Position numbers and translations under genes: made by a program | The notes under the pieces: generated by a model | Database searches by the model: none | The model's input: only the letters and a program-made list of their open reading frames with translations | Told to the model about the DNA's origin: nothing | DNA from: a virus | Lineage: Duplodnaviria > Heunggongvirae > Uroviricota > Caudoviricetes | IMG/VR virus record: IMGVR_UViG_2547132277_000001 | Length of the DNA stretch: 27,860 bases | Direction: 5' to 3' (one strand) | In this document: piece after piece, positions 6,725 through 26,698 of the stretch | Layout: every line of letters begins with the position of its first letter | How positions within the stretch are numbered: position 1 is the first letter of the stretch

Positions 6725-7234
6725 ATGTTTGATTTTCAGGTTTCCAAACATCCCCACTATGACGAAGCATGCCGCATTTTCGCACAGCGTCACAACATGG
6801 CGAAGCTGGCCGAGCGTGCAGGTATGAACGTTCAAACGTTACGTAACAAGCTCAACCCGGAACAGCCTCACCAGTTCACGCCGCCTGAATTGTGGCTGCT
6901 GACTGACCTGACCGAAGACTCAACCCTCATTGATGGTTTTTTAGCGCAGATTCACTGCCTACCATGCGTGCCGGTTAATGAGTTGGCTAAAGACAAATTG
7001 CAGTCTTATGTCATGCGCGCAATGCGTGAACTCGGCGAACTGGCGAGCGGCGCGGTATCTGATGAACGTCTGACCATTGCCCGTAAGCACAACATGATTG
7101 AAAGCGTTAACTCCGGCATTCGCATGTTGTCATTGTCGGCTCTGGCGCTGCATGCACGTCTGCAGACTAATCCAGCTATGTCGAGCGTGGTCGATACCAT
7201 GAGCGGTATTGGCGCATCGTTTGGTCTGATTTGA
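6725..7234 (+). CDS. cII: phage CII-like regulatory protein (186 CII family)
   Basis: GAGGGA RBS then ATG 6725, giving 169 aa (MFDFQVSKHPHYDEACRIFAQRHNMAKLAERAGMNVQTLRNKLNPEQP...). HTH near the N-terminus. Position after the apl-like gene matches 186 early-region order. Confidence 0.8.
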   Translation: MFDFQVSKHPHYDEACRIFAQRHNMAKLAERAGMNVQTLRNKLNPEQPHQFTPPELWLLTDLTEDSTLIDGFLAQIHCLPCVPVNELAKDKLQSYVMRAMRELGELASGAVSDERLTIARKHNMIESVNSGIRMLSLSALALHARLQTNPAMSSVVDTMSGIGASFGLI

Positions 7235-10484: not shown

Positions 10485-10544
10485 TTCATATCCATATCAT
10501 GCACATACAGCAATCGCTCTATTCGTTTTTTTCTTCCCATCTTT

Positions 10545-10577
10545 TGCCAATACGTGCTACTGTATAAATATACAGTA
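10545..10577 (+). promoter_or_regulatory. LexA-repressed (SOS) promoter: -35 TTGCCA, -10 TATACA, overlapping LexA box
   Basis: TACTGTATAAATATACAGTA (10558-10577) is a perfect CTGT-N8-ACAG SOS box overlapping a sigma70-like promoter directly upstream of ORF 10597. Confidence 0.75.
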
Positions 10578-10596
10578 ACCCTGTGGGAGGGATTTC

Positions 10597-10779
10597 ATGG
10601 TTGGCGAACATTTCAGCCGAACGCAGCAAAAGTGGGCTTGTGTGCAATTTATTGCCGAGGTATCTCTGATTGCAAACTGCAAGCCATCAGACTTAAAGCT
10701 CGCGCTCACTCTCATTGCAGACCTAGCAAACAGCGAGAATAACGAAACCGAAGATGATAATTTTTATAAGGCTGATTAG
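10597..10779 (+). CDS. SOS-controlled small protein, candidate Tum-like antirepressor N-terminal module
   Basis: GGGAGG RBS. 60-aa ORF immediately downstream of the LexA box. In 186 the LexA-controlled gene at this position is the tum antirepressor. Confidence 0.5.
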   Translation: MVGEHFSRTQQKWACVQFIAEVSLIANCKPSDLKLALTLIADLANSENNETEDDNFYKAD

Positions 10780-10782
10780 ATT

Positions 10783-11016
10783 ATGAGAATCAATATCACG
10801 TTGGATAAAGAGCAAAAAATTAGTCAGGCAACATTGGATGCACTTGAGGCTGAACTGTACCGCAATCTTCAACCTATTTACCCAAAGACTGCTATCCGAA
10901 TTCGCAAGGGCTCCGCTAATGGCGTTGAACTAAGCGGTTTGAAACTGGACGAAGATAAAAAACGAGTAATGGAAATCATGCAGCAGGTATGGGAGGACGA
11001 TAGCTGGCTGCATTAA
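10783..11016 (+). CDS. DinI-family protein
   Basis: MRINITLDKEQKISQATLDALEAELYRNLQPIYP...VMEIMQQVWEDDSWLH aligns by eye with E. coli DinI (MRIEVTIAKT...ALAGELSRRIQ...ISEILQETWE). Confidence 0.85.
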   Translation: MRINITLDKEQKISQATLDALEAELYRNLQPIYPKTAIRIRKGSANGVELSGLKLDEDKKRVMEIMQQVWEDDSWLH

Positions 11017-11149
11017 CAAACGCCGCCGGAGCTGAAACTCGCTTTCAGGTCTGGCGGGGTTGAACAACGAGCTACGCGAGGCGTTAGCCGGTCATAGCGT
11101 CGCAAATACTTCAACCGTCTGCTGGTTAAATAATTCGAGGTTTTTGGAC

Positions 11150-11344
11150 ATGCAAAATCCCCTTTCATCGAAAAATGACCCGTTTGCCGATTGGGCAAAG
11201 AATCTGACTTTAATGGCTTTAAATAACGACCTGAGCTCTCGCGAGGTGGAAAGCTACACCGCAAAAATGGTCGGGCAGGCCGGTAAAGATGAGCTATCAG
11301 TCGTTATCAAACACCTGTTAAATCACATCAGAATGCGCAAATAA
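11150..11344 (+). CDS. hypothetical protein
   Basis: GAGG RBS then ATG 11150, 64 aa. The ORF track begins this frame at a TTG at 11060, which I consider less likely. Confidence 0.4.
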   Translation: MQNPLSSKNDPFADWAKNLTLMALNNDLSSREVESYTAKMVGQAGKDELSVVIKHLLNHIRMRK

Positions 11345-11360
11345 GAGGAACTATATAAAT

Positions 11361-11462
11361 ATGTTATCTCTCGTTTATGAAAATCCGTGGACGACGATTT
11401 TTCTGATGATTGTTGCCAGCATGTGCCTCAACAGTGTTATTGGCGCATTGCGCGGCCATTAA
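11361..11462 (+). CDS. 33-aa hydrophobic peptide (predicted single TM helix)
   Basis: Strong RBS AAGAGGA 11 nt upstream of ATG. MLSLVYENPWTTIFLMIVASMCLNSVIGALRGH. Followed within 20 nt by a canonical terminator. Confidence 0.35.
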   Translation: MLSLVYENPWTTIFLMIVASMCLNSVIGALRGH

Positions 11463-11480
11463 TCGCGACAAAACCAGACT

Positions 11481-11511
11481 AAAACCGGCACCCTGAATGC
11501 CGGTTTTTTTA
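11481..11511 (+). terminator. rho-independent terminator
   Basis: ACCGGCA-CCCTGAA-TGCCGGT stem-loop followed by TTTTTTT. Confidence 0.7.
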
Positions 11512-11670
11512 TGCCATTTTTCCGCGAATTTCCCGTTTTTTAGTCGTGCATGCATCAGGTGCATGGTTTTGCATGCGTCAGTCTTGCCCGTTCTGTCCGT
11601 GCGCCGCCAGAGCTAGCGCGGATCCAGAGTTGTCATGCAACTGCATTAAAACCGCCCCATAAAGCGGGCA

Positions 11671-11689
11671 GGCGTGGCGGGGAAAGCAT
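11671..11689. other. phage cos site (19-nt cohesive-end sequence of the P2/186 family)
   Basis: GGCGTGGCGGGGAAAGCAT closely matches the P2 cohesive end GGCGAGGCGGGGAAAGCAC as I remember it. It lies between the early/replication block and the portal-terminase genes, where cos sits in P2-type prophages. Confidence 0.7.
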
Positions 11690-11908
11690 TGCGCGCCAGC
11701 AGTGATGCGTAATAATAAAAATTATCCTCTGAGCGCGTCGTGATGGCGCTGTCGTGGTCGCTGCTGGTTCGTTGGTGGTCGAGTGTGTTCGTGCGCGTGA
11801 GACGCATCTGATGCGTGATGGTGGTGTGCATGGAAAAGCCACCAGGAGCAGCGGCTTTACAGGAGTGGCAGGATTCAAACTGCTAATTATGTTTCTACTA
11901 TGATTAAA

Positions 11909-12913
11909 CTAATTTACATGTATGTAGAGTTCACCGTCGCCAGACCAATCGGGACACTCTAAAACAAGCCCAAACTGCTTGAATATTTCATCAATGATTA
12001 TTGTTATCTCCCGAAAATCACCAAAACCTGTAATGTGCTGGTCATTAAACTTCCCATAAAGATTCTGAAAAGCAATGCCTAATTCTGATAATTGATATCT
12101 TATCTTTGAGTTGGATAGTGTAAGGGATAGCTTTGGATCGTATTCTTTAATATTGATGTTTAGAGAATGGACATAACCCATCGCATAAGCATAAGAGTTG
12201 ATGATTAGCCTGATACGTTTTTTTACTTCAAGATACATGTCATTCAGAGAAAGATTACCGTACTTATAACCCCAGATGAGTTTTTCAATCTCGTCAGATA
12301 CTTCATTTACAACAGTGTCAAGATTCTCTAAAAATAAATCGATAGTTTCTTGAGGGGCAGACCCCGAAGACATGTAATTAGCGAGATATTCAGACCATGC
12401 ACGCGTGGCTGAGATAAGAAGCGCGCTACCATACTCGTTGACTGTAAAGTTTTGGGCTAAGCATGTTAGTAAGTTTTTTCATGTACGTGCACTAATTCAT
12501 GGTGAATGCGATGGATGACTGCGAGGTATCCTTCTTCTTTCAGTTTTAAGAAGCTACCATCATTGAAAAGCTCAACAAAAAAAATCAATCGATAGCACAA
12601 GGGTATATTCTTCATATAGCCCATCATTGCCAATTTTTGTTACTAACTGCCCGACGGCTGCGCCCTGTTTGCTATTGGTAAATGAACTAGGGGATTTGTG
12701 TTGGTAAGAGGATGTTACCTTTTGAAGAGCTTCACTGAAGTTATAGGAAACAATCACGCATTTTAATTTGGAGATATCAAGATTGAGATTCTTTGTTAAA
12801 GCTCGGATAGCTTCTAGTGTGAAATTACCGATATTATTTGCTTCTTGCTCAGTAGCGAAACCTTCGAGGGTTATTTTAAAATCAGTTTCCAAAATATTAA
12901 TCTCCGCGCCCAT
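11909..12913 (-). pseudogene. AT-rich cargo gene of unknown function, apparently one ~325-aa ORF interrupted by two frameshifts at homopolymer tracts
   Basis: Minus-strand ORFs 12913-12572 and 12373-11909 are in the same frame. The 198-bp gap between them is open in the -1 frame (FFVELFNDGSFLKLKEEGYLAVIHRIHHELVHVHEKTY) and then again in the original frame (KNLLTCLAQNFTVNEYGSALLISATRAWSEYLANYM-). The frame switches coincide with a T8 run (plus 12577-12584) and an A6 run (plus 12474-12479). Confidence 0.5.
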
Positions 12914-12990
12914 TGTTTTGATATTCGATGCACTATAGCTTTCGCAGATTGCATCTTCAATAATGAGCGCAGAGATTGTGGCGGCCTAAG

Positions 12991-20871: not shown

Positions 20872-21301
20872 CGCCGTGCCGCAGCTCCGAAATAATCCCG
20901 ATATGCTGCGCCTTTTTGCCGACAACGGCCATACCGATTCCCGACTGGCGAGCTCGCTGTCGTTTGAAAAGGTGTACGTGCTTAACGTGGTGGTGACCGA
21001 CTTCACCGGTGACCTTGATTTGATATTCGTGCCGGTGCAGGCGTGGCTGCGTGAACATCAGCCGGACATTATGACCACCGACGACGGGCGGGAAAAAGGA
21101 TTCACCTGGATTATTGATATCAATAACGACGATTCGCTCGATATCAGTATCAGCCTGAGGCTCACCGAGCGCACGCTCGTCAAAGAGGTCGACGGCGCGC
21201 TGCACGTCAGCTATGCCCCTGAGCAGCCACTGCCTGAGCCGGTGACGCGCCCGGTCGAGCTGTACGTTAACGGCGAACTGGTGAGTAAGTGGGATGAGTG
21301 A
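20825..21301 (+). CDS. R: tail completion protein (P2 gpR)
   Basis: ...NPDMLRLFADNG...LSFEKVYVLNVVVTDFTGDLDLIFVPVQAWLREHQPDIMTTDDG...PVELYVNGELVSKWDE matches P2 gpR closely. Confidence 0.88.
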   Translation: MNSMQKHKSLRKALINAVPQLRNNPDMLRLFADNGHTDSRLASSLSFEKVYVLNVVVTDFTGDLDLIFVPVQAWLREHQPDIMTTDDGREKGFTWIIDINNDDSLDISISLRLTERTLVKEVDGALHVSYAPEQPLPEPVTRPVELYVNGELVSKWDE

Positions 21302-21749
21302 ATTAACCGCGCTGCAGGAACGCCTTGCCGGTCTGATTGCCAGCCTGTCACCGGCGGCACGTCGGCAAATGGCGGTTGAGGTTGCGAAAAAGCTGCGTAC
21401 CAGTCAGCAACAGCGTATCAAGCGCCAGCAGGCACCCGACGGCACCCCGTATGCGGCACGAAAGCGCCAGCCGGTGCGGAGCAAGAAAGGTCGGATTAAA
21501 CGTGAAATGTTCGCCAAACTGCGCACCAGTCGCTTTATGAAAGCCAAAGGCAGCGACAGTGCGGCGGTGGTGGAGTTTACCGGCAAGGTGCAGCGCATGG
21601 CGCGGGTGCATCAGTACGGCCTAAAAGACCGGCCAAACCGCAACAGCCGGGATGTGCAGTACGAGGCGCGACCGTTGCTCGGATACTCTTCATCAGACTT
21701 ACAAAAAGTTGAGAGTTTAATTATGGATGCTTTATGTCAACGCCATTGA
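21294..21749 (+). CDS. S: tail completion/virion morphogenesis protein (P2 gpS)
   Basis: 151-aa ORF overlapping the R stop, at the conserved position. Confidence 0.8.
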   Translation: MSELTALQERLAGLIASLSPAARRQMAVEVAKKLRTSQQQRIKRQQAPDGTPYAARKRQPVRSKKGRIKREMFAKLRTSRFMKAKGSDSAAVVEFTGKVQRMARVHQYGLKDRPNRNSRDVQYEARPLLGYSSSDLQKVESLIMDALCQRH

Positions 21750-21839
21750 CTTTGGATTCGCTGAGAATTATTATATAACTCAGCGATAGAGGTGGACTGG
21801 TGTCTAGGTGGGCGTGCCCACTGAGTTGGGTTCGATTCC

Positions 21840-22676
21840 CTAACCTCGTATTATTCCTCTCGATATTTTTATTGCTGGGTTTTCCTTTCTTATTTCATTT
21901 TTAATTTGCTCATCACAAATTAAATAATCTATGTTTTTTGCTTTAACAAGTTCTTTAACGCTAATGTTAATTGAATTTAATAGATTTGCATTCCGCATGT
22001 TAGCCCCTTCATAAGTAACGGATTTAAAATCACATCCTTTTAATATGCAGCTTTTCATTTCGCTATCTGTAAAATACCCCCCTTCAAAACTGCAGTTTTC
22101 GAAAGTGACATTTTGAAAACATGTATTAAATGCCTTAATATTTCTTAGCTTGCAGTTTTTGAATTTAACACTCTTAACTCTATTGCCTGTAATATTTAGA
22201 GCTTGAATTGTGCAATTATCGAAAGAACAATCTCTAATGTATGATTCGCTCATATTCAAGCCGGTTAAGTCAGCGTCTTTAAAATGTAAATATTTGATAG
22301 TGGACATTTTATCAAGTTCAATCCTTGGAACTTGAATGTTATATATTCCTTTAGCATTTAACTGACGTATGATTTTTATCTTCATAATATTCAGTTCTGC
22401 AGAAGAATGCTTTGCCAGATTTTCAAGATCTTCAATTAGTTCGTGAATAGCATCTTTATTTTGCCTTTTATTTTCAAAATAGTAAAGAATCACACCCAAA
22501 ACAAGAAAGTCTAAAATTGAAGAATTTGCATTAACAAGAAAATTCTCCATGAATTTTGAGTTGTAGTTATCATTATAAACAGACAACCCTACTATAAGCC
22601 CGGAGTATAAAAAAAAGATACCTATAATATATTTCATATTGCTTATTGTACGCCTAAAAGATGAAGTTCTTTTCAT
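21840..22676 (-). CDS. membrane-anchored pentapeptide-repeat protein (AT-rich cargo gene between S and V)
   Basis: Two predicted TM helices (YIIGIFFLYSGLIVGLSVY, ILDFLVLGVILYYF) then about 20 tandem pentapeptide repeats (CSFDN CTIQA LNITG ... VTFEN CSFEG ... ANMRN ANLLN). Markedly AT-rich compared with neighbours. Start chosen at ATG 22676; ATG 22637 is an alternative. Confidence 0.7.
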   Translation of the reverse strand: MKRTSSFRRTISNMKYIIGIFFLYSGLIVGLSVYNDNYNSKFMENFLVNANSSILDFLVLGVILYYFENKRQNKDAIHELIEDLENLAKHSSAELNIMKIKIIRQLNAKGIYNIQVPRIELDKMSTIKYLHFKDADLTGLNMSESYIRDCSFDNCTIQALNITGNRVKSVKFKNCKLRNIKAFNTCFQNVTFENCSFEGGYFTDSEMKSCILKGCDFKSVTYEGANMRNANLLNSINISVKELVKAKNIDYLICDEQIKNEIRKENPAIKISRGIIRG

Positions 22677-22813
22677 TACTACCTGCCATATGTTTTGTGT
22701 GATTTTCGAATGAGTCAACACTCAAATGATACATGAATGCACACCGAATTGTGTAGAAGAGCATACAGCTGAATCGTTTTGCTCTTGGCTTTAACAATCG
22801 GCATTCTTTGTTC

Positions 22814-23449
22814 ATGAACACATTAAACACCATTCAAGAGTTAGCACGTGCCATTCGCAACCTCATCCGCTCAGGCGTGGTGACTGAGGTCGATACTGTG
22901 CAGGGGCTGTGCCGCGTACAAAGCGGCGGGATCCAGACTACATGGCTGAACTGGCTGACCACCCGCGCCGGTCGTTCGCGGACGTGGTGGGCTCCCTCGG
23001 TCGGTGAGCAGGTTCTGCTGCTGGCAATCGGTGGCGAGCTTGATACCGCTTTCGTGCTGCCGGGTATTTTCTCCGACGATAACCCCGCCCCGTCTGCCTC
23101 GGCGGATGCGTGGCATGTGGCTTTCCCTGATGGTGCGGTCATTGAGTACGAGCCCGAAACCGGCGCGCTGACGGTCAGCGGCATAAAAACGGCCGACGTG
23201 ACGGCATCGGAGTCCATCACCGCAACCGTACCGCTGGTACTGGTGAAAGCCTCGACCAGTATCACCCTCGACACCCCGGAGGTGATTTGCACCAATAAGC
23301 TAACGACGGCGACGCTTGAGGTGCAGAAAGGCGGCAAGATGAGCGGCAATATCGAACATACCGGCGGGTCACTGTCGTCTAATGGCAAGGTACTCCACAC
23401 CCATAAACACCCGGGCGACAGCGGCGGGCAAACGGGGGCACCGTTATGA
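22814..23449 (+). CDS. V: baseplate spike/assembly protein (P2 gpV)
   Basis: MNTLNTIQELARAIRNLIRSGVVTEVD...GKVLHTHKHPGDSGGQTGAPL is near-identical in pattern to P2 gpV. Confidence 0.9.
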   Translation: MNTLNTIQELARAIRNLIRSGVVTEVDTVQGLCRVQSGGIQTTWLNWLTTRAGRSRTWWAPSVGEQVLLLAIGGELDTAFVLPGIFSDDNPAPSASADAWHVAFPDGAVIEYEPETGALTVSGIKTADVTASESITATVPLVLVKASTSITLDTPEVICTNKLTTATLEVQKGGKMSGNIEHTGGSLSSNGKVLHTHKHPGDSGGQTGAPL

Positions 23450-25309: not shown

Positions 25310-26262
25310 CCGCAAAATATTTTGCCATTCTGACCAATCAGGGCGCGGCGCGGCTGGCGAACGCGGCGGCACTCGGTACCAAACTCAACCTGACGCAGAT
25401 GGCCGTCGGTGATGCGAATGGTACGTTGCCGACCCCTGACCCGGCGCAGACGAAGCTCATTAACCAGAAACGCATCGCGCCGCTGAACCTGCTGACCGTT
25501 GACCCGGCCAATACCAGTCAGATTATCGCGGAACAGATTATTCCCGAGAATGAAGGTGGTTTCTGGATCCGCGAGATTGGTCTCTATGACGATGATGGTA
25601 TTCTGATTGCCGTGGCGAACTGTCCGGAGACCTACAAGCCACAACTGCAGGAGGGAAGCGGTCGCACGCAGACCATTCGCATGATTCTGATTGTGTCGAG
25701 CACATCGGCAATCACCCTGAAAATCGACCCGGCAGTCGTGCTGGCAACGCGCCAGTATGTCGACGACAAGATTATCGAGGTGAAAGGATATGCTGATGAC
25801 CTGATGAAAAAACATGTTGAGGCCGCCAATCCACACAAGCAGTACCCGTTAATCGCTAATGCTCTGAAAGAAATGGTTGACGCGGGACTGGCCGGCGACG
25901 TTCTTAAAAACCTTGGTTTGGGGGAATTGGCTCTGGCTGGCGCAACAACCGGCGCTATGTTGGTGAATGGGTATGTAGCAATTCCATTAATTATTTCTGG
26001 CGTTCGGAGACCACTTATTATCCAGTGGGGAGTGGGGCAGTTTGGGGGAAGTCTGGGGGATGATGCGGGATATTTAAACAATTTCCCTTTCGCTTTTCCG
26101 TCGGCGTGCTACGTGATGGTTGCCAGCCACGTGGGGCATACACCTTCGGGTGCCGGAATACTATCTGCTTCCGCAATCACAAAAAGCGGCTTTCGTGGTT
26201 TTTCCAGCGTAGCGACTGCCGCAAATCCTGTATCGGGCTGTTATGTTGCTATAGGAGGGTGA
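25306..26262 (+). CDS. H: tail fibre protein: P2 gpH-like constant N-terminus plus variable C-terminal domain (orientation-dependent)
   Basis: N-terminal ~160 aa (…MAVGDANGTLPTP…GGFWIREIGLYDDDGILIAVAN…YKPQLQEGSG…) resemble P2 H. The C-terminal part lies beyond the crossover motif at 25902-25927. Confidence 0.85.
   Translation: MTAKYFAILTNQGAARLANAAALGTKLNLTQMAVGDANGTLPTPDPAQTKLINQKRIAPLNLLTVDPANTSQIIAEQIIPENEGGFWIREIGLYDDDGILIAVANCPETYKPQLQEGSGRTQTIRMILIVSSTSAITLKIDPAVVLATRQYVDDKIIEVKGYADDLMKKHVEAANPHKQYPLIANALKEMVDAGLAGDVLKNLGLGELALAGATTGAMLVNGYVAIPLIISGVRRPLIIQWGVGQFGGSLGDDAGYLNNFPFAFPSACYVMVASHVGHTPSGAGILSASAITKSGFRGFSSVATAANPVSGCYVAIGG
25773..25923 (+). repeat. left inverted repeat of the tail-fibre invertible region (151 bp, identical to the reverse complement of 27710-27860)
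   Basis: Direct comparison: plus 25773-25923 equals the reverse complement of 27710-27860. Identity ends at 25923/27710 and is truncated only by the window edge on the other side. Confidence 0.9.
25902..25927. other. hix/gix/cix-like recombination site (serine DNA-invertase crossover site), left copy
   Basis: TTCTTAAAAACC-TT-GGTTTGGGGGAA resembles the Hin hixL site TTCTTGAAAACC-AA-GGTTTTTGATAA as I remember it (11/12 in the left half-site). It sits exactly where sequence identity between the two fibre cassettes ends. Confidence 0.6.
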
Positions 26263-26263
26263 C

Positions 26264-26698
26264 GTGTTTTTTAGTCCATCTTTAAATATTTTTGTGAATC
26301 CTGCGCTTAAGGATGACTACATCAATGTAAATTCATGGCCAGATGATGCTGTTGAAGTTGATGAGCAGGTGTATATTGAGTTTTCCGGATTACCGCCGAA
26401 AGGAAAAATCCGTATCGCTGGGGAAAATGGTTTTCCTGCATGGTCTGAAATTCCACCACCAACGCATGAGGAACAGATTGCCGCAGCCGAATTGAAAAAA
26501 CAGCAATTGATTAATCAGTCCAACGAATATATGAATACCAAGCAATGGCCTGGTAAAGCGGCTATTGGTCGTCTGAAAGGTGAGGAACTGGCGCAATATA
26601 ATTTGTGGCTGGATTATCTGGACGCACTGGAACTGGTTGATACCTCCAGTGCTCCAGATATTGAATGGCCTACGCCTCCGGCAGTTCAGGCCAGATGA
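26264..26698 (+). CDS. tail fibre assembly chaperone (Tfa / gpG-like) for the plus-orientation fibre
   Basis: 144-aa ORF immediately after the fibre C-terminus. AGGAGGG RBS with a GTG start at 26264. Converges tail-to-tail with a second Tfa gene on the minus strand. Confidence 0.65.
   Translation: MFFSPSLNIFVNPALKDDYINVNSWPDDAVEVDEQVYIEFSGLPPKGKIRIAGENGFPAWSEIPPPTHEEQIAAAELKKQQLINQSNEYMNTKQWPGKAAIGRLKGEELAQYNLWLDYLDALELVDTSSAPDIEWPTPPAVQAR

What the first reader, a model, noticed from the sequence alone, without database searches (positions are those of the whole stretch)
21750..22813. AT-rich membrane-anchored pentapeptide-repeat protein inserted between tail genes S and V
A single minus-strand gene (21840-22676) sits between the otherwise contiguous P2 S and V genes. 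Its base composition is far more AT-rich than the prophage backbone, which marks it as horizontally acquired cargo. The product joins two N-terminal TM helices to about 20 pentapeptide repeats. Pentapeptide-repeat proteins such as Qnr and McbG are DNA mimics that protect gyrase (established). A membrane-tethered one carried in a P2-family moron site is not something I can place in a described family. Candidate lysogenic-conversion or anti-phage (superinfection exclusion) function, which is inference.
Basis: partly seen in the sequence, partly recalled or inferred. Interest (0 to 1): 0.8.

Follow-up and report, generated by a model that had tools for sequence, protein, structure and literature searches.

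The report
Membrane pentapeptide-repeat protein with tRNA-shaped antisense RNA
The AT-rich insert between the P2 tail genes S and V is a real, conserved two-part accessory module, made of an inner-membrane pentapeptide-repeat protein and a previously unnoticed tRNA-shaped small RNA gene that overlaps its stop codon from the opposite strand; it looks like an undescribed RNA-controlled toxin or anti-phage module.

Summary
A 278-aa minus-strand gene (21840-22676, GC 0.30 against about 0.6 in the flanks) sits at the S-V junction of a P2-like prophage. It encodes two N-terminal TM helices, a helical linker and a 22-repeat pentapeptide beta-helix. It is under strong purifying selection (dN/dS 0.05-0.15). 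Alleles down to 52% identity occupy the same junction in Escherichia, Klebsiella, Salmonella and Enterobacter. Relatives at 25-30% identity lie on small Acinetobacter and Psychrobacter plasmids, two of the three next to restriction or toxin-antitoxin genes.

It is not Qnr-like: the repeat domain is basic, membrane-tethered and far below the family cut-offs. It is not Hailong HalA: there is no channel domain and no HalB.

New here: every locus with readable downstream DNA carries a convergent gene for an anticodon-less tRNA-shaped RNA. In the window the promoter is at 21746-21774 and the cloverleaf at 21789-21847. The RNA overlaps the protein's stop codon. Compensatory changes occur in all four helices.

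Best reading (inferred, about 0.4): a membrane toxin or effector held in check by the RNA, acting in phage defence or element maintenance. No function has been tested. No paper in the held library describes the pair.

The parts
21685..22800 (.). AT-rich inserted module; both boundaries are approximate
   Evidence: Alignment with the empty S-V junction of E. coli EC1 shows homology breaking near 21685, inside the 3' end of S, and resuming just upstream of V. GC is 0.28-0.35 here against about 0.6 in the flanks.
21840..22676 (-). CDS of the 278-aa membrane-anchored pentapeptide-repeat protein, including the TAG stop
   Evidence: dN/dS is 0.05-0.15.
22575..22631 (-). TM helix 1 (aa 16-34), preceded by a basic N-terminus (MKRTSSFRRTISNMK), so N-terminus inside
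   Evidence: Kyte-Doolittle hydropathy; AF2 helix 15-34.
22479..22541 (-). TM helix 2 (aa 46-66), motif FLVNANSSILDFLVLGVILYYFE; the most conserved stretch of the protein, with a polar stripe N49/S52/S53/D56
   Evidence: Invariant columns of A2 include N49, S53, D56, F57, L60, G61, V62, L64, Y65 and Y66, even in the 25%-identical Paenibacillus homolog. The motif recurs in distant homologs.
22320..22478 (-). Cytoplasmic helical linker (aa 67-119): continuation of the TM2 helix to aa 87, then helix 93-108
   Evidence: AF2 secondary structure.
21960..22289 (-). Pentapeptide-repeat right-handed beta-helix: 22 pentapeptides, aa 130-239, about 5.5 coils
21843..21959 (-). C-terminal cap (aa 240-278; helices 240-243 and 256-265); its last two codons are overlapped by the RNA's closing stem
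22690..22718 (-). Candidate promoter of the protein gene: TTGACT, 17 nt, AAACAT
   Evidence: In my reading of the upstream alignment, the TTGAC -35 and the 17-nt spacing to an A2/T6 hexamer are shared by the window, L012 and L013. L008 keeps the -35 but has a poor -10. A second candidate (22755..22726, TACACA-18-TATCAT) came from the scan.
21746..21774 (+). Promoter of the antisense small RNA: TTGACT, 17 nt, TATTAT (10 of 12 consensus positions). The -35 hexamer overlaps the S stop codon (21747-21749)
   Evidence: This is the best sigma-70 match in the region. The geometry is conserved in 12 of 12 variants from Enterobacterales and Moraxellaceae.
21789..21847 (+). tRNA-shaped, anticodon-less RNA core. 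Closing stem 21789-21793 with 21843-21847. D-arm with CTGGTG loop motif 21795-21804. Variable hairpin 21807-21822. T-loop GGTTCGATTCC 21829-21839. The predicted transcript starts near 21781; its 3' end is undetermined
   Evidence: Covariance model hit 21782-21857, 92.6 bits. Covariation in the alignments. The element abuts a homolog of the protein gene wherever found. Coordinates verified.
22750..22767 (+). TGT-N12-ACA motif of the late V-operon promoter (Ogr/activator site). It belongs to the phage backbone and abuts the cargo gene's promoter region
   Evidence: Sequence read. The equivalent site is annotated in P2 and is present in L008, L012 and L013.

Best explanation
The insert is a self-contained two-gene accessory module with a promoter at each end. 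Gene 1 encodes an inner-membrane protein. It has an N-in/C-in hairpin of two TM helices; the second carries an almost invariant polar motif (NANSSxxD). A long cytoplasmic helix follows, then a mildly basic 22-repeat pentapeptide beta-helix. Gene 2 lies on the opposite strand and is driven by a conserved TTGACT-17-TATTAT promoter. It encodes a small cloverleaf RNA of roughly 60-75 nt, with tRNA-like D- and T-loops but no anticodon loop. The 3' strand of its closing stem covers the last two codons of gene 1, and the stop codon lies in the adjoining T-stem. I propose that the protein is a membrane-acting toxin or effector, in which the TM hairpin oligomerises into a pore or ion leak. I propose that the RNA is its antidote or regulator, most simply by pairing with the 3' end of the mRNA as in type I toxin-antitoxin pairs. 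The module would then give the lysogen, or the plasmid host, abortive-infection-type phage defence and/or stabilise the element. Shown: the anatomy, conservation, linkage, strand and structure of the RNA, and the mobile-element contexts. Inferred: transcription of the RNA, toxicity, the regulatory link and the defence phenotype.
For: (1) The module sits at a classical P2 moron site. P2's characterised cargo (old, tin, Z/fun) is anti-phage.
(2) Alleles at 52-81% identity occupy the same S-V junction, always antiparallel, in Klebsiella, Salmonella, E. hormaechei, E. cloacae and a second E. coli allele. One allele sits in the moron end of a lambdoid prophage beside umuDC and dinI.
(3) Homologs at 25-30% identity lie on 9-11 kb plasmids. 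In Acinetobacter pittii the gene lies between a RelE/ParE-NadS pair and a restriction endonuclease. One of the two Psychrobacter plasmids carries a SinI restriction-modification system and an HNH nuclease.
(4) TM2 is the best-conserved part of the protein, which is unexpected for a mere anchor. The two-TM-plus-linker domain is found with pentapeptide repeats in 47 of 52 representatives.
(6) RNA linkage. The RNA pattern occurs 4 times in 241 million metagenome records, each time abutting a homolog's 3' end. All 8 enterobacterial IMG/VR loci, 3 plasmids and 3 further viral loci have it.
(7) RNA specificity. A covariance model gives exactly one hit per locus, at that position, in 148 kb searched on both strands.
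(8) RNA structure. 85.7% of cells are paired, against 44-59% when partners are slid. 14 of 19 pairs show compensatory change, in all four helices.
(9) RNA strand. In the central hairpin the table shows 9 G.U cells; the 3 unpaired cells read U.U in the alignment, so I see no A.C cells. That fixes the strand as antisense to the protein gene.
(10) Promoter geometry is conserved in 12 of 12 variants.
(11) By my count, the RNA core differs at 3 of about 60 positions between the window and the Klebsiella allele, whose synonymous sites are 71% different.
Against: There is no expression, toxicity or phage-challenge data.
PADLOC gives no defence hit, only a weak SLATT-like match on the TM region (E 0.0027).
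Classical type I toxins are peptides under 60 aa, not 278-aa proteins.
The overlap with the coding region may be only a few codons, because the RNA's 3' end is unknown.
No intrinsic terminator was found for either transcript.
Fold energies of the RNA are not better than those of shuffled sequences (z -0.1 to -1.5).
The covariation alignment A6 was fitted to the model.
My crude cognate versus non-cognate test of the closing stem was not significant.
Four of the six distant RNA hits are not significant on their own (E 0.14 to 1.1).
Most close prophage relatives do well without the module.
Confidence: 0.4

Rival explanations
1. Superinfection-exclusion protein. The inner-membrane protein blocks DNA entry or ejected proteins of incoming phages at the cytoplasmic face without killing the cell. 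The RNA only tunes or insulates its expression against late-operon read-through.
For: Prophage membrane proteins at tail-region moron sites are typical exclusion factors (own knowledge: HK97 gp15, P22 SieA; PMC10883804 is listed). The repeat domain is cytoplasmic and membrane-proximal. The gene is antiparallel to the late operons.
Against: This reading does not explain why a structured tRNA-shaped RNA is conserved with the gene on small plasmids, where there is no late operon. It also does not explain why the polar TM2 motif is the most conserved part.
Confidence: 0.2
2. RNA-gated effector (type III-like). The tRNA-shaped RNA binds the basic pentapeptide-repeat domain directly and holds the membrane domain inactive, as oligo-dA does for HalA. 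Infection-triggered loss or cleavage of the RNA releases it.
For: HalA's repeat-containing cytoplasmic part binds an oligonucleotide that gates the channel. The repeat domain here is basic in nearly all family members. D- and T-loop sequences are conserved much more strictly than antisense pairing alone would need.
Against: There is no binding evidence. The conserved overlap with the stop codon points to cis-antisense action. HalA similarity is limited to the repeat fold.
Confidence: 0.12
3. The tRNA-like element is a decaying remnant of a tRNA gene or attachment site that travelled with the cassette. The protein is a plain membrane protein of unrelated function, for example lysogenic conversion.
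For: Islands often integrate at tRNA genes. A 78-nt tRNA-like gene lies upstream of the Paenibacillus homolog. ARAGORN and Rfam do not call the element.
Against: The same orientation, the same overlap with the stop codon, a conserved promoter and compensatory changes persist while the protein diverges to 25-30% identity and synonymous sites saturate. A relic would have decayed.
Confidence: 0.06
4. Qnr/McbG/AlbG-type DNA mimic that protects gyrase, or a DNA-mimic anti-defence protein such as the Vibrio phage 24_60 pentapeptide-repeat protein.
Against: The protein is membrane-tethered. The repeat domain is basic, not acidic. It scores 27.9 bits against the Qnr cut-off of 240 and 28.1 bits against the MfpA cut-off of 360. 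It has its own promoter antiparallel to the phage late genes.
Confidence: 0.05

Closest known systems
Hailong effector HalA (PDB 9nyi; NCBIfam NF051894)
   Different: HalA has the repeats at the N-terminus and an IRK-type K-channel domain at the C-terminus, and it needs the HalB nucleotidyltransferase. Here the order is reversed, the TM part is an unrelated two-helix hairpin, there is no HalB, and the partner is an RNA gene. The score is 44.8 bits against a cut-off of 250.
Qnr / MfpA / AlbG / McbG gyrase-protecting pentapeptide-repeat proteins
   Same: Right-handed quadrilateral beta-helix of tandem pentapeptides.
   Different: Those proteins are soluble, dimeric and electronegative DNA mimics (own knowledge). 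This one is membrane-anchored, basic and far below their family cut-offs.
Phage P2 orf30 (non-essential gene between S and V)
   Same: Same locus, same antiparallel orientation, AT-rich, membrane protein, dispensable.
   Different: No sequence similarity (P2 was not among the tblastn hits). It has no pentapeptide repeats and no tRNA-like element downstream.
Type I toxin-antitoxin pairs with 3'-overlapping antisense RNAs on prophages (txpA/RatA and bsrG/SR4 of B. subtilis; hok/sok)
   Same: A membrane-targeted protein gene with a convergent, promoter-driven small RNA that overlaps its 3' end, on mobile elements. PMC3531473 is listed; the details are my own knowledge.
   Different: Those toxins are peptides under 60 aa and the RNAs are not tRNA-shaped. 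Here the protein is 278 aa with a large cytoplasmic domain.
P4 CI RNA and P1/P7 C4 RNA (Rfam C4 family): tRNA-like, RNase P-processed antisense regulators of P2-satellite and P1 immunity (own knowledge)
   Same: Small phage-encoded regulatory RNAs built on a tRNA-like scaffold.
   Different: No Rfam match at E <= 10. The targets and the genomic setting differ.
Transfer RNA
   Same: The covariance model built from the element retrieves genuine phage tRNAs at 20-28 bits. The two shown in full align D-arm, central arm and T-arm in register. The T-loop GGTTCGATTCC and D-loop TGG motifs are present.
   Different: There is no 7-nt anticodon loop; the central hairpin varies in sequence and loop size. 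The closing stem has 4-5 bp. No CCA is encoded. ARAGORN is negative.

Membership tests
Pentapeptide-repeat proteins (Pfam PF00805/PF13599) | Tandem A(D/N)LXX-type pentapeptides scoring above the Pfam gathering thresholds | tested here: met
   PF13599 scores 60.6 bits (cut-off 38) and PF00805 38.8 bits (cut-off 20.2). There are 22 in-register repeats.
Pentapeptide-repeat proteins (Pfam PF00805/PF13599) | Right-handed quadrilateral beta-helix fold | tested here: met
Qnr/MfpA-type gyrase protectors | Score above the NCBIfam family cut-off | tested here: not met
   27.9 bits against 240 (Qnr) and 28.1 bits against 360 (MfpA).
Qnr/MfpA-type gyrase protectors | Soluble, electronegative DNA-mimic surface | tested here: not met
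   Two TM helices. The repeat domain has net charge +2 and pI 8.2; the family range is pI 6.8-9.3.
Qnr/MfpA-type gyrase protectors | Protects gyrase from quinolones or toxins | not testable with these tools
   Needs MIC and gyrase assays.
Hailong (HalA/HalB) | HalA equivalog score of at least 250 bits | tested here: not met
   44.8 bits, covering the repeat region only.
Hailong (HalA/HalB) | IRK-type ion-channel TM domain C-terminal to the repeats | tested here: not met
Hailong (HalA/HalB) | Adjacent HalB nucleotidyltransferase gene | tested here: not met
   The neighbours are S and V or other unrelated genes in all loci.
Type I toxin-antitoxin | Antisense RNA gene overlapping the toxin gene | tested here: inconclusive
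   A conserved promoter and a structured RNA overlap the stop codon. Transcription has not been observed.
Type I toxin-antitoxin | Small (<60 aa) hydrophobic toxin | tested here: not met
   The protein has 278 aa.
Type I toxin-antitoxin | Toxicity relieved by the RNA | not testable with these tools
   Needs expression experiments.
tRNA | Cloverleaf with D- and T-loop elbow motifs | tested here: met
   (the L004 variant's minimum-energy fold is a 4-arm cloverleaf).
tRNA | 7-nt anticodon loop and detection by a tRNA finder | tested here: not met
   ARAGORN finds none. The central hairpin has a variable loop, 4 nt in the folds made. Rfam tRNA was not reported even at E <= 10.
C4/CI antisense RNA family (Rfam) | Match to the Rfam covariance model | tested here: not met
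   No such hit at E <= 10 in 21500-23000.
SLATT 2-TM effector domains | Significant profile match of the TM region | tested here: inconclusive
   PADLOC RTasSLATT gives E 0.0027 and 15.5 bits on aa 6-69 only. There are no Pfam SLATT hits in 52 family members.
P2 orf30 family | Sequence similarity to P2 Orf30 | tested here: not met
   P2 is absent from the tblastn hits. The sequence and topology differ.

The most novel reading that the evidence does not exclude
This is a new class of RNA-guarded membrane effector. An anticodon-less tRNA mimic is made constitutively and binds the basic pentapeptide-repeat domain, the RNA counterpart of oligo-dA gating of HalA. That keeps a pore formed by the conserved polar TM hairpin shut. 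Phage-induced tRNA-directed nucleases, RNA turnover or transcription shut-off remove the RNA and trigger membrane depolarisation. The module would thus use tRNA mimicry as the infection sensor.
Probability: 0.12. Interest if true: 0.9.

Novelty: new variant of a known kind. Interest (0 to 1): 0.68.

Why it matters
The third classical P2 moron site (S-V, orf30) has no known function, and this family is a recurrent resident of it across several genera of Enterobacterales. If the module is an RNA-controlled membrane toxin or defence system, it adds three things. First, a second and architecturally different use of pentapeptide repeats in a membrane effector, after HalA. Second, a new family of tRNA-shaped regulatory RNAs that is absent from Rfam. 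Third, a compact 1.1-kb module that can be tested directly by cloning. It also shows that annotation of 'single-gene' morons can miss an RNA partner.

Tried and rejected
- ARAGORN on the window and on five homolog loci, and a permissive Rfam scan of the window region (E <= 10), did not call the element. Its tRNA likeness had to be shown with a custom covariance model.
- The profile search of the 5.8-billion protein set did not return the distant two-TM relatives.
- afdb50 was unavailable. The BFVD search gave only generic repeat proteins.
- The Hailong paper itself is not held, so HalA's architecture was taken from two other papers and from PDB/NCBIfam matches.
- Fold-energy z-scores of the RNA are unremarkable.
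- A crude cognate versus non-cognate closing-stem test did not separate the two groups, so I rely on the position-anchored counts.
- On A4 alone only the central hairpin showed compensatory change.
- Membership in Qnr-like, Hailong, orf30 and C4/CI families was considered and rejected (see the membership tests).
- Four literature searches for a pentapeptide-repeat anti-phage or prophage protein, or a pentapeptide-repeat plus tRNA-like RNA module, found nothing that describes this one.
Full report
**1. The observation**

The window holds most of a P2-like prophage. From left to right it has an integrase region, the replication gene A, portal, terminase, capsid genes, lysis genes, R, S, V, W, J and I.

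Between S (21294-21749) and V (22814-23449) lies one minus-strand ORF, 21840-22676. It has an ATG start, a TAG stop and 278 codons. GC falls to 0.28-0.35 there against 0.54-0.64 on either side, and this is the lowest GC in the window. RefSeq annotates the same ORF as WP_001530900.1. The identical gene is present in the isolated phage vB_EcoM-613R3.

The gene is not a chance ORF. Between alleles, dN/dS is 0.05-0.15 while synonymous sites are saturated (pS 0.58-0.88).

Alignment with a closely related prophage that has an empty junction (E. coli EC1, 68-bp S-V gap) defines the insert. It runs from about 21685, inside S, so it replaces roughly the last 21 codons of S. It ends just upstream of V.

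Of 5426 complete E. coli genomes, 14 carry this allele and 4 carry a 67%-identical one, again at the S-V junction. Another 56 match only the flanks.

**2. The protein**

- Hydropathy and the AF2 model (pLDDT 86.4, pTM 0.72) agree on two TM helices, aa 16-34 and 46-66.
- The basic N-terminus and the basic stretch after TM2 place both ends in the cytoplasm.
- TM2 continues as a long helix to aa 87. A second helix covers aa 93-108.
- A beta-helix of 22 pentapeptides spans aa 130-239, followed by a helical cap.
- Pfam pentapeptide models score above threshold.

The best-conserved segment of the whole family is TM2 (FLVNANSSILDFLVLGVILYYFE). N49, S53, D56, G61, Y65 and Y66 are invariant even in a Paenibacillus homolog at 25% identity. 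The motif recurs in more distant members.

A search with the N-terminal 126 residues against 1.84 billion representatives found 52 proteins. Of these, 47 also carry pentapeptide repeats, so the architecture is fixed. Named members come from Citrobacter, Serratia, Yersinia, Acinetobacter, Paenisporosarcina and Paenibacillus. All are annotated only generically. PHROG 12514 (function unknown) matches at 5.8e-142.

**3. What the protein is not**

Not Qnr, MfpA or AlbG:
- The scores are an order of magnitude below the curated cut-offs.
- The protein is membrane-anchored.
- The repeat domain is mildly basic throughout the family (pI 6.8-9.3). The gyrase protectors are electronegative DNA mimics (own knowledge).

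Not Hailong HalA:
- HalA was the best NCBIfam hit, but at 44.8 bits against a cut-off of 250.
- HalA joins N-terminal repeats to an IRK-type channel and needs the HalB nucleotidyltransferase.

PADLOC gave only a weak SLATT-like match on the TM region (E 0.0027), which I treat as inconclusive.

P2's own gene at this site, orf30, is an unrelated membrane protein.

**4. Context**

The S-V junction is the boundary between two late operons. In P2 it holds a terminator after S and the activator-dependent V promoter. The TGT-N12-ACA activator motif is intact here at 22750-22767. The junction is one of the three recognised P2 moron regions (PMC6823313). The other two carry the anti-phage genes old/tin and Z/fun, and many newer defence systems.

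Alleles of this gene at 52-81% identity sit at the same junction, always antiparallel, in four other hosts: Klebsiella, Salmonella, E. hormaechei and E. cloacae prophages. Two further IMG/VR contigs (L079 and L080) show an S-like C-terminus beside the RNA gene. A 339-aa form lies at the moron end of a lambdoid prophage in Citrobacter, next to umuDC and dinI.

Homologs at 25-30% identity lie on small plasmids:
- In Acinetobacter pittii the gene lies between a RelE/ParE-NadS pair and a restriction endonuclease.
- One of the two Psychrobacter plasmids carries a SinI restriction-modification system and an HNH nuclease.

**5. The unexpected partner**

Several homologs have odd C-terminal tails (…EVRESNPTQ, …GIEPNSVGKPT). 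These turned out to be different reading frames of one conserved DNA block just past the stop codon.

Read on the opposite strand, which is the plus strand of the window, the block has these parts:
- TTGACT, 17 nt, TATTAT, then about 7 nt.
- ATAGAGGT, a closing stem.
- GGAC-TGGT-GTC, a short D-arm with the TGG motif.
- A hairpin whose sequence differs between lineages but stays paired.
- GGG-TTCGATT-CCC, a canonical T-arm.
- ACCTC, the 3' strand of the closing stem.

In the window the promoter is 21746-21774. It is the best sigma-70 match in the region, at 10 of 12 positions. The cloverleaf is 21789-21847. The protein's TAG stop lies in the 3' strand of the T-stem, and its last two codons lie in the closing stem.

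Linkage of the RNA to the protein gene:
- The pattern occurs only 4 times in 241 million metagenome records, each time abutting a homolog.
- All 8 enterobacterial IMG/VR loci carry it.
- All three Moraxellaceae plasmids carry it.
- Three more distant viral loci (T-loop GGTTCAATTCC) carry it, in the same orientation and with the same overlap.
- P2 orf30 and the empty sites lack it.

Promoter: its geometry is conserved in 12 of 12 variants.

Structure:
- RNAalifold finds four compensatory pairs in the central hairpin.
- The L004 variant's minimum-energy fold is a clean four-arm cloverleaf.
- A covariance model built from ten variants retrieves bona fide phage tRNAs at 20-28 bits. In the two alignments shown, the D-arm, central arm and T-arm are in register with the model.
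- Across 148 kb of 15 loci, that model hits exactly once per locus, always at the expected place.
- On the resulting 15-sequence alignment, 85.7% of cells pair, against 44-59% when partners are slid. 14 of 19 pairs carry compensatory changes, spread over all four helices.

Strand: G.U pairs are frequent in the central hairpin (9 cells) and I see no A.C cells there, so the structured strand is the one antisense to the protein gene.

Selection: by my count, the RNA core differs at 3 of about 60 positions between the window and the Klebsiella allele, whose synonymous sites are 71% different. The RNA is therefore under its own purifying selection.

Caveats:
- ARAGORN and Rfam do not call the element, and it has no anticodon loop.
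- Fold-energy z-scores are unremarkable.
- The big alignment was fitted to the model.
- Four of the six distant hits are individually non-significant (E 0.14 to 1.1).
- A crude closing-stem control failed.
- Neither transcript end is known, and transcription itself has not been observed.

**6. Mechanism**

The anatomy is a compact module bounded by two inward-facing promoters. It is mobile between prophages and plasmids, AT-rich and dispensable. It consists of a membrane protein and a convergent structured RNA that overlaps its stop codon.

The closest functional templates are two:
- Type I toxin-antitoxin pairs with 3'-overlapping antisense RNAs on prophages (details are own knowledge).
- The Hailong effector, in which a pentapeptide-repeat-bearing channel is held shut by an oligonucleotide.

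I therefore favour, at about 0.4, an RNA-restrained membrane toxin or effector that serves abortive-infection defence and/or element maintenance. In this reading the conserved polar TM2 does the membrane damage. The RNA acts by pairing with the mRNA's 3' end, possibly removing the stop codon after RNase III cleavage (speculation), or by binding the basic repeat domain.

Rivals:
- A non-lethal superinfection-exclusion protein (0.2).
- Direct RNA gating (0.12).
- A tRNA or attachment-site relic beside an unrelated membrane protein (0.06).
- A Qnr-like or anti-defence DNA mimic (0.05).

**7. Novelty and verdict**

The site and the fold are known. The protein family has no characterised member. 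I found no description of its pairing with an anticodon-less tRNA-shaped RNA in Rfam, PADLOC, NCBIfam or the searchable literature.

I rate it a new variant of a known kind: an RNA-controlled membrane toxin or defence module. Interest is 0.68. The feature is real, conserved and cheaply testable, but its function is entirely inferred.

Noticed in passing
window 21746-21857 (+): A conserved promoter plus an anticodon-less tRNA-shaped RNA gene, convergent with the pentapeptide-repeat gene and overlapping its stop codon. ARAGORN, Rfam and RefSeq do not annotate it. It became the core of the interpretation.
   Followed up: yes
window 21685-21749: About the last 21 codons of tail gene S are encoded by AT-rich DNA that differs from empty-site relatives (…SSSDLQKVESLIMDALCQRH* against …DDEQMIEDVIIRHLGK*). 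The S stop codon overlaps the -35 hexamer of the small-RNA promoter.
   Followed up: partly
window 21759-21785: A perfect 7-bp inverted repeat, CGCTGAG-N13-CTCAGCG, encloses the -10 hexamer and the predicted start of the small RNA. It is present only in this allele lineage. It could be an operator or the remnant of the O-operon terminator.
   Followed up: no
L016 about 7000-7060 (E. cloacae CP009756): Three tandem copies of a 14-nt unit, GGAATCGAGGTTAG, at the end of the gene. They duplicate the stop codon, the 3' strand of the T-stem and the 3' strand of the closing stem.
   Followed up: no
L004-L007 (Citrobacter) and homologs P0005-P0010: 339-aa forms carry an extra N-terminal extension of about 60-75 aa. 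The Citrobacter one (P0005) sits not at the S-V junction but at the cargo end of a lambdoid prophage, between a SRAP-domain gene and umuDC/dinI, still with the RNA gene. The E. cloacae 339-aa form (P0008, L016) is at the S-V junction. The contexts of the others were not examined.
   Followed up: partly
L018 2683-2760 (Paenibacillus whitsoniae): ARAGORN calls an atypically short (78 nt) 'tRNA-Ser(tga)' 160 nt upstream of the distant homolog, on the same strand. It is unclear whether this is a real tRNA, an attachment site or a relocated version of the RNA partner.
   Followed up: no
window 10540-12990: The other P2 cargo hotspot, between replication gene A and the portal gene, holds a DinI-like gene (10783-11016). 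It also holds two ORFs of unknown function (11909-12373 and 12572-12913) in or beside a stretch where GC falls to 0.37 (12001-12600). Neither has a Pfam or PADLOC match.
   Followed up: partly
window 22690-22767: The cargo gene's candidate promoters lie back to back with the activator site (TGT-N12-ACA) of the late V promoter, and one of them overlaps it. Late-gene activation and cargo expression could therefore interfere with each other.
   Followed up: no
window 26250-26549: A second, milder GC dip (0.41) downstream of gene I, in the tail-fibre region. Not examined.
   Followed up: no
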